Positions 15,440 to 21,167 of a stretch of 64,000 nt of DNA are shown piece after piece. Origin of the DNA: a virus (Duplodnaviria > Caudoviricetes); IMG/VR virus record IMGVR_UViG_3300012983_000031, positions 128,001 to 192,000 of that record. One strand, given 5' to 3'. The notes under the pieces are model-generated. The model had not been told where the DNA came from. It did no database searches and saw nothing but the letters and a program-made list of their open reading frames with translations. The position numbers were made by a program, and so were the translations under genes. Position 1 is the first letter of the stretch, and each line of letters starts with the position of its first letter.

Positions 15440-15480
15440 TTCTTTTCTATGTCAAATAAAAGTTGTAACTTTGCAACATC
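15440..15480 (+). promoter_or_regulatory. Bacteroidota housekeeping-sigma promoter driving the TnpB/Cas12-like gene
   Basis: TAACTTTG (-7 TAnnTTTG) at 15466-15473, in the same context as the other phage promoters. Confidence 0.7.
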
Positions 15481-15514
15481 AAACGAAATTAATAACTCAT
15501 AAATTAAAAAGAAT

Positions 15515-16789
15515 ATGGCTAATATCGCTGTCAAGTACAGAATATATCCTACCAAAGCACAAAGGAATTTTATTAATAAAAACATTGGTGCGAACAGATG
15601 GTTCTGGAACTATTGCATCGAGAAGAAGCAGAACGCTTATATTGAAAGCAAAAGAACAGGTGATAAAGCGTTGGCACGTATTGATGGTCAAACATTACGT
15701 GGTCATGTTAAAACATTAAAAGAAGAAGAAGAGACAAAATGGTTAAAGGATGTAAAGTTAAATTCCTTTAATTATGTTGTTGAACATTTTGATGAAGCAT
15801 ATAAAAGGTTTTTTGAAAAAAAAGCTGGAAAGCCAAAGAAGCATAAAAGAACAAGATCTGGCGCATTCACAACTCAAATTACTAAAGCTAGAAATATAGA
15901 AAATCTTATTGATTATAAGAATAATCGTATATATCTTGGTAAATTTATCAAAAACGAAAATGGTGAACCAGAACGTTTTGTAAAAGCCAAGATTCATAGA
16001 AAGGTTGATGGTACAATCATGAACATGACAATATCAAAAGATATTGATAATAGATACTATATATCTTTTTGTTTGAAGGTTGATGATTGGAAAAAGCCAA
16101 AGTCTCCAACATTAGATGGAACTATTGGTATAGATATGGGAATGTCAGAGGCTGGCGCTCTTTACGGATCTGATTTAAAAGTTAGATATGGATCTGATAA
16201 TATTGCTGGACTAACGGATAAAATAAACCGTATGGAAAGGCATTTAAAGAAATGGAGCAAAATAAAGTCAAAACGTTATAGCATTGAACGTAAGAAAAAA
16301 CGTACAGGGCAATCCAAAGGATATGTTGAAGCTGTTGAAAAATGTGCTGTTATACAATGCAAAATAAATCGTTTAAAATCTTATATAACTCATATGATGA
16401 CATCATCGATTGTGCATTGTGAGAATATTGATTCAATCGCAATAGAATCTTTGGATGTTAAAGAGATGATCGAGAAAAAGACAACAAACAATTTAAAAGA
16501 ACAAAAGGCTCGCAAGAGGAGAGCAAGAAGAAACCGCATCGTTCGTCTTGGCGAAATTTCCAGGCAACTTGAGTATAAAGCTGAAATAAATGGAAAGAAT
16601 TTTGTTAAAATTAATAAATGGTACCCATCTTCAAAAACATGTTCAGTGTGTGGATATAAAAATGATAATCTGAAATTAACTGACAGGTCTTGGGTTTGCC
16701 CTCACTGTCATACAGAACATCATAGAGATTTCAATGCTGCTGAAAATATTAAAAATGAAGGGTACAGGATGTTAACAAGTAAGAATTGA
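15515..16789 (+). CDS. tnpB: TnpB / miniature Cas12(f)-like RNA-guided RuvC nuclease, CRISPR-associated
   Basis: N-terminal KYRIYPT HTH_OrfB; RuvC-I GIDMG; RuvC-II AIESL; YPSSKTCSVC...CPHC zinc finger; RuvC-III RDFNAAENI. Confidence 0.92.
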   Translation: MANIAVKYRIYPTKAQRNFINKNIGANRWFWNYCIEKKQNAYIESKRTGDKALARIDGQTLRGHVKTLKEEEETKWLKDVKLNSFNYVVEHFDEAYKRFFEKKAGKPKKHKRTRSGAFTTQITKARNIENLIDYKNNRIYLGKFIKNENGEPERFVKAKIHRKVDGTIMNMTISKDIDNRYYISFCLKVDDWKKPKSPTLDGTIGIDMGMSEAGALYGSDLKVRYGSDNIAGLTDKINRMERHLKKWSKIKSKRYSIERKKKRTGQSKGYVEAVEKCAVIQCKINRLKSYITHMMTSSIVHCENIDSIAIESLDVKEMIEKKTTNNLKEQKARKRRARRNRIVRLGEISRQLEYKAEINGKNFVKINKWYPSSKTCSVCGYKNDNLKLTDRSWVCPHCHTEHHRDFNAAENIKNEGYRMLTSKN

Positions 16790-16819
16790 TCATAATATAA
16801 AACGTTGGTCGCGTTTCAG

Positions 16820-17025
16820 ACCCTACCCGTGTGTAGCGGGAATGTAATGTCCGTGGACAGATTTGTCGATTTAATCGATTGAACTTTTGTTCAACAGTGG
16901 CGTTCTTGATACATTTGTAATCGTAGAATAGTTGCGGAATGTGATTTGAAGCGGAAAAAATGAAATGACATCGGTCATTTCACCAAGCAGAACGTAAGTT
17001 CTGTATACAATATTTCTCCATAGCT
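16820..17025 (+). ncRNA. omegaRNA-derived, tracrRNA-like scaffold with anti-repeat
   Basis: TnpB right-end RNA-like signature CTACCCG..CGGGAATGTAATGTCCGTGGA...TGAAGCGGAAA. Hairpins at 16961-16982 and 16988-17003 (GUAA loop). 17008-17022 matches the repeat reverse complement at 13/15. Confidence 0.65.
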
Positions 17026-17055
17026 CTTTGATATACACAATGTTATACAACATAA

Positions 17056-17532
17056 GCTGTTTATTATGGCGAAATGTTGGATGGTTACAACTTAAACCAC
17101 ATGAATGATGATGATCCAGCGCTGTTTATTATGGCGAAATGTTGGATGGTTACAACTACGGGACAGTTCAAGAGAATAAATGATGGCTGTTTATTATGGC
17201 GAAATGTTGGATGGTTACAACGATATTCATAAGGCTCCTTCCTGTTCTAAGCTGTTTATTGTGGCGAAATGTTGGATGGTTACAACCCTACGATCTTTAA
17301 GCCATCTTTCATTGATGCTGTTTATTGTGGCGAAATGTTGGATGGTTACAACAGACAGTTGCACCAGATGACTGTTTATTGTGGCGAAATGTTGGATGGT
17401 TACAACTAACCCATTCGCCTCCTTGATGACGAGCCAGCTGTTTATTATGGTGAAATGTTGGATGGTTACAACTAGGATTTCTCCCTTCAGATTCTTGCTG
17501 TTTATTGTGGCAAAATGTTGGATTGTTACAAC
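17056..17532 (+). CRISPR. CRISPR array: 8 repeats of 36 bp (GCTGTTTATTRTGGCGAAATGTTGGATGGTTACAAC), 7 spacers
   Basis: Repeats start at 17056, 17121, 17186, 17251, 17317, 17371, 17437 and 17497. Spacers are 29, 29, 29, 30, 18, 30 and 24 nt. Repeats degenerate toward the right end. Confidence 0.97.
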
Positions 17533-17576: not shown

Positions 17577-17888
17577 ATGGCAGCTATTCAAGAAATTTTT
17601 AATGCAGCGTTTTGGTACATGGCACCAATTCTTGTTGCGCTTTCTACAACTGTTACGGGTCTTGTGAATCAATGGTTCAAAATCCCTGATAAGTTTAAGC
17701 AACTTGCATCCTGGATTGTGGGCGCAGTTCTTTCCTGTGGAGCAATCTTCTTTGGATTCCTTGGTGAAAGCATAGGATGGCCAAGTTACATTGCGTTAAG
17801 CATCGTCGTGGGTCTATCATCAAATGGTATCTATGACATTGAAGCTATTAAGAAAATTATAGATTCATGGTTTAATAAGAAGAAATAA
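17577..17888 (+). CDS. holin-like membrane protein
   Basis: Three TM helices, GLSSNGIYD, basic C-terminus. Confidence 0.6.
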   Translation: MAAIQEIFNAAFWYMAPILVALSTTVTGLVNQWFKIPDKFKQLASWIVGAVLSCGAIFFGFLGESIGWPSYIALSIVVGLSSNGIYDIEAIKKIIDSWFNKKK

Positions 17889-18078
17889 TTTCATTCAATA
17901 ATAGCGTTTTCGATCCGTTGTCATCTTACAATGGGTCGATTTTTTTATTTTTTCGTTAAAATGTTTTTCTATGTCGAAAATAAGTTGTATCTTTGCAACG
18001 GAATTAAAAATAATTACAAAATGAATATCTCATATGTTCTTAGAGAGTTCAGATGTTACATTAATTGTAAGTTGAAAC

Positions 18079-20701: not shown

Positions 20702-20775
20702 GCTCCAGTAGCTCAGTTGGTTAGAGCAACGGACTGTTAATCCGTGTGTCGGTGGTTCGAGCCCACCCTGGAGCG
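20702..20775 (+). tRNA. tRNA-Asn(GTT)
   Basis: Cloverleaf. Confidence 0.9.
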
Positions 20776-20848
20776 CAAAATAAGAAAAATAAGTAATTGT
20801 ACCACAGACCGCTGAAAGCAGTAAGGATTCCAAATTAGATAAATCAAA

Positions 20849-20993
20849 TAGGTAGCCGTACTACCGAATTTACGCTTGTGGACTATCCAACTATGGATGA
20901 ACGTGGTTTACCACCTAAAAAGTAGTGATAGGTTGAAGCAAGAAATAAAATGTATGAGATTCATAGATTTTCATAGAATTTTATATACGGTAA
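20849..20993 (+). ncRNA. orphan TnpB omegaRNA-like scaffold
   Basis: GGTAG..CTACCGAATTTACGCTTGTGGA...TGAAGCAAGAAA with no tnpB ORF; nested inside a 14-bp inverted repeat (20779-20792 / 21063-21076). Confidence 0.55.
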
Positions 20994-21078: not shown

Positions 21079-21162
21079 GGCTTCATGGTGGAATGGTAGA
21101 CACGAGGGACTTAAAATCCCTTGGGCATTGCGCCCGTGCGGGTTCGAGTCCCGCTGAAGCTA
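21079..21162 (+). tRNA. tRNA-Leu(TAA)
   Basis: Cloverleaf with long variable arm. Confidence 0.9.
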
Positions 21163-21167
21163 CAACC

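What the first reader, a model, noticed from the sequence alone, without database searches (positions are those of the whole stretch)
16820..17091. The omegaRNA appears split into tracrRNA plus crRNA: anti-repeat and pseudoknot partner both match the CRISPR repeat
Seen: the intergenic RNA keeps a TnpB right-end RNA-like signature (CGGGAA-TGTAAT-GTCCGTGGA...GAAGCGGAAA) and continues through two hairpins into TATACAATATTTCTCCATA (17004-17022). This pairs with repeat TATGGCGAAATGTTGGATG with two mismatches and two G.U pairs. The next repeat bases, GTTACA, pair with scaffold TGTAAT (16843-16848), a position I infer forms the pseudoknot with the scaffold 3' end in ordinary omegaRNAs. Almost the whole 3' 27 nt of the repeat is therefore accounted for. 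Inference: the + strand crRNA (5' handle, 3' guide) supplies the scaffold end in trans, so the gene-array linkage is functional and not chance adjacency.
Basis: partly seen in the sequence, partly recalled or inferred. Interest (0 to 1): 0.9.

Follow-up and report, generated by a model that had tools for sequence, protein, structure and literature searches.

The report
Phage TnpB-like CRISPR with split guide
A very large phage carries a transposon-type (TnpB-sized) RNA-guided nuclease whose guide RNA appears split into a scaffold RNA plus a CRISPR array. This is a well-preserved new example of the already published "TranC" transposon-to-CRISPR intermediate, not a new principle.

Summary
The main idea holds: the 266-nt spacer between a 424-aa TnpB-family nuclease gene (15515-16789) and an 8-repeat CRISPR array (17056-17532) encodes a structured RNA. 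That RNA is homologous to the omegaRNA of ordinary, array-less TnpB genes, and it has lost its own guide-proximal strand. The array repeats supply that strand in trans.

One detail is wrong. The conserved pseudoknot partner of the repeat's 3' end is the loop of the first hairpin (TGTA, 16832-16835). It is not TGTAAT at 16843-16848. The loop pairing covaries at all four base pairs across 23 split and unsplit relatives. TGTAAT pairs well only in this phage and is at chance level.

The anti-repeat is bipartite: ACCA (16982-16985) and 17008-23, either side of an inserted hairpin. Together with the pseudoknot, this engages repeat nt 9-34.

Eleven such loci from phage or metagenome contigs form one protein clade. 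Functional RNA splitting of TnpB guides was published as TranC (Jin et al., Cell 2025), and a phage-borne TranC has been reported. I therefore rate this a new member of a known kind. All evidence here is computational. No RNA-seq could be obtained and no protospacers were found.

The parts
15462..15485 (+). Copy of the phage's recurring promoter-like motif (GTTGTAACTTTGCAAC, Bacteroidota-type TAnnTTTG). Predicted start of the nuclease-scaffold-array unit.
   Evidence: The motif occurs 8 times on the + strand and 0 times on the - strand of the window. Copies at 15462 and 17984 flank the unit. Promoter function is inferred.
15515..16789 (+). 424-aa TnpB-family RNA-guided nuclease (TranC-like effector). 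RuvC residues D207, E311 and D405 and the CxxC...CxxC zinc finger are all present.
   Evidence: Pfam HTH_OrfB_IS605 plus Cas12f1-like_TNB. NCBIfam guided_TnpB at 216 bits, cut-off 100. Full-length match to ISDra2 TnpB structures 8bf8/8h1j, E about 7e-31, with GIDMG, IAIE and HRDFN aligned to the chain's GVDVG, IGTE and HDRDEN.
16819..17023 (+). tracrRNA-like scaffold, homologous to a TnpB omegaRNA. The true 5' and 3' ends are unknown.
   Evidence: Covariance model R1, built without this sequence, matches 16819-16986 at 48.6 bits, E 1e-11. The scaffold is conserved in 10 or more CRISPR-linked loci.
16826..16840 (+). First hairpin (S1): CCCG / TGTGTAG / CGGG. Loop bases TGTA (16832-16835) are the proposed pseudoknot partner of repeat nt 31-34 (TACA).
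   Evidence: The stem covaries (CCC/GGG, CCGAA/TTCGG, GGTAG/CTACC). Loop-to-tail pairing scores 89 of 92 units over 23 loci, and 0 of 20000 shuffles reach that.
16843..16848 (+). Probably not the partner.
   Evidence: It gives 6 bp with the repeat tail in this phage only. The longest run in relatives has a median of 3 bp. It is one of four equivalent sites; chance expectation is 0.7.
16962..16981 (+). Hairpin H1 (GAAATGAC-ATCG-GTCATTTC), which follows the conserved TGAAGCGGAAAAA motif.
   Evidence: Found by fold and cofold. The equivalent hairpin differs in sequence in every relative.
16982..16985 (+). Anti-repeat part a (ACCA). It pairs with repeat nt 27-30 (TGGT) and corresponds to the base of omegaRNA stem 4.
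   Evidence: Found by cofold. The same position pairs in L004 (GCACC/GGTGT), L006 (GCAATC/GGTTGT), L007 (ACCTT/AAGGT) and L087 (ACCA/TGGT), read.
16987..17004 (+). Hairpin H2, inserted between the two anti-repeat parts. It makes a three-way junction with the crRNA.
   Evidence: Found by cofold.
17008..17023 (+). Anti-repeat part b (CAATATTTC-T-CCATAG). It pairs with repeat nt 9-24 as 9 + 6 bp with a one-nucleotide bulge on each strand.
   Evidence: Pair list. It is the best complementarity in the ncRNA. Array polymorphisms A11G and G21A keep the pairs, and C15T lies at the bulge.
17023..17051 (+). Possible degenerate 'repeat 0' (GCTCTTTGATAT...ATACAAC), a relic of the original cis 3' strand of the omegaRNA.
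   Evidence: End-to-end alignment to the repeat scores 18, against a shuffle mean of 12.1; 22 of 500 shuffles reach it. This is suggestive only.
17056..17532 (+). CRISPR array of 8 x 36-nt repeats (GCTGTTTATTATGGCGAAATGTTGGATGGTTACAAC). Predicted crRNA has a repeat-derived 5' handle and a 3' guide.
   Evidence: The distal repeat is degenerate, so the leader lies on the nuclease side. The near-identical locus L002 shares only 2 spacers.
17577..17888 (+). 103-aa holin-like ORF that ends the same predicted transcription unit.
   Evidence: PHROG 1299 holin, E 5e-7.
17910..17949 (+). Intrinsic-terminator-like hairpin followed by a T run.
20846..20993 (+). Orphan, unsplit omegaRNA-like scaffold between tRNA-Asn and tRNA-Leu. 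Its S1 loop CCGTA can pair in cis with TACGG about 140 nt downstream.
   Evidence: R1 scores it at 92.5 bits, but it was part of the training set. Sequence, tRNAs. It is used here as one data point for the pseudoknot.

Best explanation
This is a TranC-like (transposon-CRISPR intermediate, type V-U-like) system carried by a very large phage.

Proposed mechanism:
1. One + strand transcript probably runs from the promoter-like motif at 15462 to the terminator at about 17930. It carries the nuclease mRNA, a scaffold RNA of about 200 nt, and the array.
2. The scaffold is a TnpB omegaRNA that has lost a working cis copy of its last strand.
3. Each crRNA (36-nt repeat handle plus 3' spacer) restores that strand in trans. 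Repeat nt 9-24 pair with 17008-17023. Repeat nt 27-30 pair with ACCA at 16982-16985; together these rebuild omegaRNA stem 4, now a three-way junction with hairpin H2. Repeat nt 31-34 (TACA) pair with the loop of the first hairpin (TGTA, 16832-16835) to rebuild the pseudoknot just upstream of the guide.
4. The 424-aa nuclease has an intact RuvC triad and would then cut DNA matching the spacer.

Shown here (computationally): scaffold homology to unsplit omegaRNAs, covariation of the pseudoknot, cognate anti-repeat complementarity, conserved synteny, and monophyly of the CRISPR-linked proteins.

Inferred: transcription, RNA processing, trans assembly, cleavage activity, PAM and biological targets.
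For: 1. Scaffold homology. Model R1 was built from other loci. It hits 16819-16986 at 48.6 bits. It hits the 3' ends of about 15 array-less tnpB genes at 50-78 bits. Those RNAs run on through a stem-4 hairpin to ...GGTAG(T/C)TCAC, after which copies diverge; that point is the guide boundary.

2. Pseudoknot. Loop nt 2-5 of S1 pair with nt -3..-6 before the guide in 23 loci, scoring 89 of 92 pair units. Each of the four pairs shows 2-3 different Watson-Crick types: GAAC/GTTC, GAGC/GCTC, TGTA/TACA, TGTG/CACA, TGCA/TGCA, CGTA/TACG. None of 20000 tail shuffles reaches the observed score. The register matches the ISDra2 structure, where nt -5..-3 pair with -103..-105 flanked by non-canonical pairs (PMC10097598).

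3. Anti-repeat. Cofold places repeat nt 9-24 and 27-30 on 17008-17023 and 16982-16985, a gain of -11.8 kcal/mol. In a cross matrix of 12 ncRNA rows and 12 repeats, the ncRNA of 6 of 11 loci prefers its own repeat, counting L006 with its better-fitting b-type repeat. Non-terminal repeat polymorphisms preserve the pairing.

4. Linkage. Loci at 34-45% protein identity (L004, L006, L007, L087-L092), plus L167-L169, keep the order nuclease-scaffold-array. Those with a full-length ORF in hand (L167-L169 not included) fall into 11 CRISPR-linked tree leaves, including this window and L002, that form one clade with support 0.999.

5. Nuclease. It is TnpB-family with an intact catalytic triad. The 220-kb record has no Cas1 and no Y1 TnpA.

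6. Strand. The promoter motif occurs only on the + strand and a terminator follows the unit.

7. Spacer content differs between 98%-identical loci.
Against: - There are no expression data.
- No protospacer was found for any spacer: not in GenBank phages, not in IMG/VR for the two spacers tried, and not in the phage's own genome or the fetched loci. Targets, PAM and activity are therefore unknown.
- The anti-repeat alone is only about 3 sd above shuffled repeats. In some relatives (L087, L092, L169) the cognate repeat is not the best partner in the crude matrix.
- The shuffle test for the pseudoknot is not corrected for phylogeny. The number of independent compensatory events is about five.
- The scaffold keeps a TACAAC 4 nt before the array (17046-17051), so a residual cis-guide form cannot be excluded.
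- Alignments and helices were partly read by hand.
Confidence: 0.8

Rival explanations
1. The scaffold is split as described, but the repeat bases GTTACA (nt 29-34) form the pseudoknot with TGTAAT at 16843-16848, and a single continuous 19-nt anti-repeat (17004-17022) pairs with repeat nt 10-28.
For: Both complementarities exist in this window. TGTAAT gives 6 bp, the longest run of its kind in any locus. L089 has the same TGTAAT.
Against: The equivalent segment in relatives is GTTAAG, GTCAAG, GTTAAT or GTAAAG, and it does not track the repeat tails; the median best run is 3 bp. Four sites in the ncRNA fit equally well, and chance gives 0.7. The S1 loop covaries with the tail at all four pairs and matches the ISDra2 register. 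Cofold prefers the bipartite anti-repeat that includes ACCA.
Confidence: 0.1
2. The intergenic RNA still works only as an ordinary cis omegaRNA, with its tail at TACAAC (17046-17051) or TTCAC (about 16983). The array would be an unrelated or decaying neighbour, for example captured from the host, and not used by this nuclease.
For: A TACAAC tail and a possible degenerate repeat precede the array. No cas1 or cas2 is present. No protospacers were found. Published TranC systems are reported to use the ancestral right-end RNA as well (my recollection of the abstract of Jin et al. 2025; not read here).
Against: The array is conserved downstream of the scaffold across a whole protein clade. Repeat tails covary with the scaffold loop and the anti-repeats are cognate. 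The cis 'repeat 0' has lost most of its pairing to the anti-repeat. TTCAC cannot pair with this scaffold's loop GTGTA. Spacers turn over between near-identical phages.
Confidence: 0.06
3. The crRNA works alone, as in Cas12a- or Cas12j-type systems. The intergenic RNA would be only a leader or 3' UTR relic.
For: Some relatives (L007) have repeats with an internal hairpin that mimics omegaRNA stem 4.
Against: The window's repeat folds weakly on its own, at -5.7 kcal/mol. The scaffold is conserved, with compensatory changes in several helices. A TnpB-sized protein depends on a large RNA scaffold in the solved structures (PMC10097598).
Confidence: 0.04

Closest known systems
TranC systems (transposon-CRISPR intermediates; Jin et al., Cell 2025, doi 10.1016/j.cell.2025.09.004; cited in PMC13565253 and in bioRxiv 10.64898/2026.03.27.714800)
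   Same: A TnpB-like nuclease sits next to a downstream CRISPR array, and the right-end/omega RNA is functionally split into tracrRNA plus crRNA. There are no adaptation genes. The arrays are short and the repeats are 32-38 nt. A phage-borne, TnpB-sized member (CauTranC9) has been reported.
   Different: It is distant from the solved LaTranC; only the C-terminal third aligns, E 8e-14. CauTranC9 is reported with 38-nt repeats; this array has 36-nt repeats. Activity has not been tested here.
ISDra2 TnpB-omegaRNA (PDB 8bf8, 8exa, 8h1j; PMC10097598)
   Same: It is the best natural solved-structure match over the full length, E about 7e-31 (one AI-designed nuclease, 9yyg, scores slightly higher). 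It has the same RNA logic: a pseudoknot between a 5' element next to stem 1 and the nucleotides just upstream of the guide, preceded by a stem-4 hairpin.
   Different: In ISDra2 the guide RNA is one molecule and the gene lies in an IS200/IS605 element with TnpA. Here stem 4 is opened, its 3' strand is supplied by the array repeats, and no TnpA is present.
Cas12f (type V-F) tracrRNA:crRNA
   Same: It works alike. The crRNA repeat forms a repeat:anti-repeat duplex with the 3' end of the tracrRNA. The repeat's last bases form the pseudoknot with a hairpin loop of the tracrRNA. This description of the loop partner is my recollection of the Un1Cas12f1 sgRNA; the general equivalence is stated in PMC10097598.
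   Different: The protein is not a Cas12f. Only the zinc-finger/RuvC C-terminus matches, E about 1e-3, and there are no expanded REC or WED domains.
Type V-U* CRISPR-associated TnpB branches (Altae-Tran et al., PNAS 2023, PMC10691335)
   Same: These are small TnpB-derived effectors with a downstream array and no cas1, cas2 or cas4. Many are known only from metagenomes.
   Different: That survey did not define the tracrRNA anatomy. Whether this clade is one of V-U6 to V-U45 could not be checked.

Membership tests
TranC / type V-U-like CRISPR-associated TnpB | TnpB-family RuvC nuclease with an intact catalytic triad | tested here: met
   NCBIfam guided_TnpB at 216 bits. D207, E311 and D405 align with the GVDVG, IGTE and HDRDEN motifs of ISDra2 TnpB.
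TranC / type V-U-like CRISPR-associated TnpB | An evolutionarily conserved CRISPR array downstream of the gene | tested here: met
   The array is at 17056-17532. Arrays are present in L002, L004, L006, L007, L087-L092 and L167-L169. The CRISPR-linked proteins form one clade with support 0.999.
TranC / type V-U-like CRISPR-associated TnpB | A scaffold RNA derived from the omega/right-end RNA that needs the repeat in trans (anti-repeat plus pseudoknot strand in the repeat) | tested here: met
   Homology to unsplit omegaRNAs. Pseudoknot covariation. Cognate anti-repeat. This is sequence evidence only.
TranC / type V-U-like CRISPR-associated TnpB | crRNA-guided DNA cleavage | not testable with these tools
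   This needs a PAM-depletion or cleavage assay. No protospacers were found.
TranC / type V-U-like CRISPR-associated TnpB | Placement in one of the published TranC clades | not testable with these tools
   The Cell paper and the preprint's sequence tables are not held. The match to LaTranC is only partial.
IS200/IS605 TnpB-omegaRNA (OMEGA) transposon module | A single contiguous omegaRNA whose 3' end is the transposon right end, followed by a flanking-DNA guide | tested here: not met
   The cis tail is degenerate and is followed by a repeat-spacer array. Unsplit relatives show the canonical form.
IS200/IS605 TnpB-omegaRNA (OMEGA) transposon module | Association with TnpA, or multiple mobile copies | tested here: not met
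   There is no Y1 TnpA and only one copy of the nuclease in the 220-kb record. The record is only about 60% complete.
Cas12f (type V-F) | Protein homology to Cas12f with its REC and WED expansions | tested here: not met
   Only a C-terminal zinc-finger match, E about 1e-3, compared with 7e-31 to TnpB.

The most novel reading that the evidence does not exclude
The phage may run one TnpB-sized nuclease on two guide formats at once: the adaptive split format (scaffold plus CRISPR crRNAs), and a hard-wired unsplit omegaRNA encoded 3.7 kb away inside a tRNA cluster (20846-20993). tRNA-processing enzymes would release the second RNA, which carries a fixed guide. If so, this genome would capture both sides of the TnpB-to-Cas12 transition in simultaneous use. 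The possible 'repeat 0' relic would show that the array arose by tandem duplication of the last strand of the omegaRNA.
Probability: 0.15. Interest if true: 0.65.

Novelty: new member of a known kind. Interest (0 to 1): 0.4.

Why it matters
The principle is already published and tested (TranC, 2025): a TnpB guide RNA splits into tracrRNA plus crRNA, and that step created type V CRISPR.

This locus adds a natural comparative series:
- unsplit omegaRNAs of ordinary TnpBs;
- a monophyletic phage-associated clade with split guides;
- within that clade, a lineage with a larger scaffold and protein (424-453 aa).

The series pins the split to the apical loop of stem 4. It also shows that the pseudoknot register is kept exactly.

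Practically, it gives a ready design for a compact (424 aa) editor candidate. A single-guide RNA could be made by joining 17023 to repeat nt 9. The analysis also shows which scaffold bases must be co-varied with the repeat.

It adds to the evidence that very large phages carry minimal CRISPR effectors without adaptation genes.

Tried and rejected
- Protospacers: the whole array against GenBank phages gave only chance hits. Two spacers searched exactly in IMG/VR gave none. All 69 spacers of the family, searched against this phage genome and every fetched locus, matched only themselves. The orphan scaffold's putative guide has no second site in the genome.
- Rfam: no family matches the region.
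- The scaffold pattern in genome contigs returned 6 hits, all chance matches inside GC-rich coding sequence.
- A single-protein scan of IMG/VR found nothing. The alignment-based scan was needed.
- RNAduplex on whole ncRNAs gave uninterpretable structures with large interior loops. One run with shuffles timed out.
- RNAalifold on the MAFFT alignment recovered only S1 and one G.U-rich helix. That helix (GTCTGTGG/CTATGGAT) conflicts with the better-supported CTACC/GGTAG helix, so I left it out.
- One treekit run was lost. The tree was redone with MAFFT and FastTree on 71 sequences.
- 'Repeat 0' relics before the array are significant only in W (22 of 500 shuffles) and L087 (7 of 500), not in the other loci.
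- The preprint's supplementary sequence tables and the Cell paper are not held, so the TranC clade could not be assigned.
Full report
WHAT IS THERE

The window is part of a 220-kb IMG/VR virus record estimated at about 60% complete, so this is a very large phage. At 15515-16789 (+) lies a 424-aa ORF. It carries Pfam HTH_OrfB_IS605 and Cas12f1-like_TNB domains. It scores 216 bits on NCBIfam 'RNA-guided endonuclease TnpB family', where the cut-off is 100. It aligns over its full length with the solved ISDra2 TnpB (8bf8/8h1j, E about 7e-31). Its GIDMG, IAIE and HRDFN motifs (D207, E311, D405) lie opposite the chain's GVDVG, IGTE and HDRDEN, and both CxxC pairs are present.

After a 266-nt gap comes a CRISPR array at 17056-17532. 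It has eight 36-nt repeats and seven spacers of 18-30 nt. The three proximal repeats are identical and the distal repeat is degenerate. The 220-kb record has no Cas1 and no Y1 TnpA.

A promoter-like motif, GTTGTANCTTTGC, occurs eight times in the window, always on the + strand. One copy sits at 15462 and the next at 17984. A terminator-like hairpin lies at 17910-17949. The nuclease, intergenic RNA, array and a small holin-like ORF therefore look like a single + strand transcription unit. This is inferred, not shown.

CHECK OF THE OBSERVATION

All quoted strings are at the stated coordinates. TATACAATATTTCTCCATA (17004-17022) pairs with repeat nt 10-28 as 15 Watson-Crick pairs, 2 G.U pairs and 2 mismatches. 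RNAcofold recovers this duplex on its own. In an ungapped scan it is the best complementarity in the ncRNA, scoring 29 against 19.9 +/- 3.1 for shuffled repeats.

TGTAAT (16843-16848) does pair with GTTACA, but this is not special. Four sites in the ncRNA satisfy the same rule (16832, 16843, 16916, 16940), and shuffles give 0.7 on average. A 10-bp match to repeat nt 26-35 also exists at 16915-16924.

RELATIVES

A search of 5.8 billion proteins found one 98%-identical protein, a few at 44-45%, and then a continuum of TnpBs. Fetching contigs, two alignment-based scans and a scaffold-pattern scan gave 14 loci with the same order: nuclease, a conserved RNA of about 150-310 nt, then a 36-nt-repeat array. 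These are L002, L004/L005, L006, L007, L087-L092 and L167-L169. L171 is cut off before any array. The IMG/VR members lie on contigs of 44-409 kb.

The repeats differ strongly between loci except for a shared ...ACAAC 3' end. L002 is 98% identical in protein to the window but shares only two spacers with it, so spacer content turns over.

A FastTree of 71 family proteins puts all 11 CRISPR-linked proteins with a full ORF in one clade (support 0.999). No array-less members fall inside that clade in this sample.

THE INTERGENIC RNA IS AN OMEGARNA HOMOLOGUE

The scaffolds align well over their 5' 130 nt: CCTACC-hairpin-GT.AA.GTCYGYGGA...CTATGGATGA...CTAAAAAG...TGAAnCAGAAAAA-hairpin. Several helices keep their pairing through sequence change: S1; CTACC/GGTAG, which becomes CGTG/CACG, CTGCC/GGCAG or TTACC/GGTAA; and two hairpins.

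I built a covariance model from nine other loci plus an orphan copy. It scores the window's scaffold, which was not in the model, at 48.6 bits (E 1e-11, 16819-16986). It also scores the 3' ends of about 15 ordinary, array-less tnpB genes at 50-78 bits. These come largely from human-gut contigs and their proteins are 28-33% identical to the window's. In those genes the RNA continues through a stem-4 hairpin (CCGCTAAA...TTTAGCGG) to ...GGTAG(T/C)TCAC. Beyond that point, otherwise identical copies diverge. This is the classical scaffold/guide boundary at a transposon right end.

WHERE THE SPLIT IS, AND THE PSEUDOKNOT

In the unsplit RNAs the 5-nt loop of the first hairpin (GGAAC or GGAGC) is complementary to GTTC or GCTC at positions -6..-3 before the guide. 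In every CRISPR-linked locus the same loop (GTGTA) is complementary to TACA at -6..-3 of the repeat. There are matched exceptions:
- L006: loop GTGTG with repeat ...CACAAC.
- L091: loop GTGCA with repeat ...TGCAAC.
- The orphan copy in this window: loop CCGTA with TACGG in cis.

Over 23 loci the four pairs score 89 of 92 possible units. Every pair shows two or three different Watson-Crick types. None of 20000 reassignments of tails to loops reaches the observed value. That control ignores phylogeny; I count about five independent compensatory events.

The register matches the ISDra2 cryo-EM structure. There, nt -5..-3 pair with -103..-105, flanked by two non-canonical pairs, and the helix stacks on stem 1 (PMC10097598).

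In relatives it reads GTTAAG, GTCAAG, GTTAAT or GTAAAG, and it does not follow the repeat tails; the median best run is 3 bp. The conserved pseudoknot partner in the window is therefore TGTA at 16832-16835.

THE ANTI-REPEAT

Cofolding the last 95 nt of the scaffold with one repeat gives 19 intermolecular pairs:
- 17008-17016 with repeat nt 16-24;
- 17018-17023 with repeat nt 9-14;
- ACCA at 16982-16985 with repeat nt 27-30.

Hairpin H2 (16987-17004) sits between these parts, forming a three-way junction. ACCA lies directly after hairpin H1. In the unsplit RNAs the 5' strand of stem 4 follows H1 after only a 4-nt GAAG linker. The paired repeat bases are followed at once by the pseudoknot strand. 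So the split sits in the apical part of stem 4.

The same short helix is kept with different sequences in L004 (GCACC/GGTGT), L006 (GCAATC/GGTTGT), L007 (ACCTT/AAGGT) and L087 (ACCA/TGGT). In L089 and L091 the anti-repeat is one continuous helix of about 13 bp starting right after H1.

In a crude 12 x 12 matrix of cofold gains, the cognate repeat ranks first for 6 of 11 loci, counting L006 with its b-type repeat.

Within the arrays of the window and L002, non-terminal polymorphisms are mostly neutral for pairing. A11G gives U.G, G21A gives U-A, and C15T falls at the bulge; one repeat has a breaking T12C. The terminal, degenerate repeats break pairs.

With the pseudoknot included, repeat nt 9-34 are all engaged.

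A POSSIBLE RELIC

The 29 nt between the anti-repeat and the array (17023-17051, GCTCTTTGATAT...ATACAAC) align end to end with the repeat. The score is 18 against 12.1 +/- 2.6, and 22 of 500 shuffles reach it. This fits an origin of the array by duplication of the omegaRNA's last strand plus guide, followed by decay of the original cis copy. The signal is weak and is absent in most relatives, so I treat it as a suggestion.

COMPARISON WITH WHAT IS KNOWN

Nakagawa et al. proposed that tracrRNA-crRNA pairs arose by splitting an omegaRNA (PMC10097598). Altae-Tran et al. catalogued 40 CRISPR-associated TnpB branches, V-U6 to V-U45, with downstream arrays and no adaptation genes (PMC10691335). Jin et al. 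(Cell 2025) named such systems TranC and showed experimentally that functional RNA splitting is the key step; I know this only through citing papers. A 2026 preprint tested several TranC clades, including a TnpB-sized one from a Caudoviricetes genome, and predicted their tracrRNAs by the same anti-repeat logic.

The present locus fits this kind in every feature I could test. I could not assign it to a published clade. It is distant from the solved LaTranC. The RNA architecture works like that of Cas12f, but the protein is not a Cas12f.

VERDICT

The general interpretation is right but already known. The specific pseudoknot assignment is probably wrong and is corrected here. Function (transcription, processing, cleavage, targets) remains untested: no RNA-seq could be obtained and no protospacers were found. 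The same scan noted this locus and the orphan scaffold in other first-stage notes. The orphan note supplied a useful data point for the pseudoknot.

Noticed in passing
window 20846-20993: An orphan omegaRNA-like scaffold lies between tRNA-Asn (20702-20776) and tRNA-Leu (21079-21163), with no nuclease ORF or array beside it. It resembles the scaffolds of other phages (subfamily of L090/L007) more than the window's own. Its first hairpin is GGTAG-CCGTA-CTACC, and the loop can pair in cis with TACGG at about 20987-20991. That would start a guide near 20993 (AATATCATATG...). This guide has no other match in the 220-kb genome.
   Followed up: partly
L006:3211-4030: One array holds two repeat types, GGTGTTAAAGGCCTGAC... 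and GGTGTTAGACACCTTCA..., and one copy of the second type sits among the first. The single upstream anti-repeat fits the second (distal) type better: cofold gain -11.7 against -6.8 kcal/mol.
   Followed up: partly
L004:5334-5990: In this 45%-identical relative a DUF7352 gene lies between the nuclease gene and the scaffold. The scaffold then has its own Bacteroidota-type promoter motif (TACCTTTGCA) about 30 nt upstream. In this locus, then, the scaffold and array can be a transcription unit separate from the nuclease.
   Followed up: no
L007:4380-4430: The scaffold contains a hairpin plus tail (GACCTTAAAATAATGGTCTTTTACATCAC) that closely resembles the array repeat (GACCTTAAAAATAAAGGTATATACAAC). 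This relative may keep an intact cis omegaRNA next to its array, with each repeat carrying its own stem-4 hairpin.
   Followed up: partly
L158:2188-2529 and L119:3592-5617: Some array-less TnpB loci carry two copies of the omegaRNA scaffold. In L158 they are 240 nt apart in tandem; in L119 they are 1.9 kb apart with different tails (GCTCAC and GTTCAC). These may be early stages of guide-module duplication.
   Followed up: no
window 17353-17370 and 17473-17496: Two spacers are abnormally short, 18 and 24 nt against 29-30 nt for the rest. The 18-nt spacer is shared with L002, so it is stable and not an assembly artefact.
   Followed up: no
window 11101-35614: A block of about 40 nt, TTTTTCTATGT...AAAAGTTGTAACTTTGCAAC, recurs 8 times, always on the + strand and ahead of genes or tRNA clusters. 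It is probably the phage's own strong promoter, of Bacteroidota -7 type, which suggests a Bacteroidota host.
   Followed up: partly
L116:3619-4180: A different TnpB lineage (34% identity, outside the clade) also has a 7-repeat array whose repeats end in ...TCACAAC. A GGTGTGA motif in the short upstream RNA could form the analogous pseudoknot. This may be an independent origin of the same arrangement.
   Followed up: no
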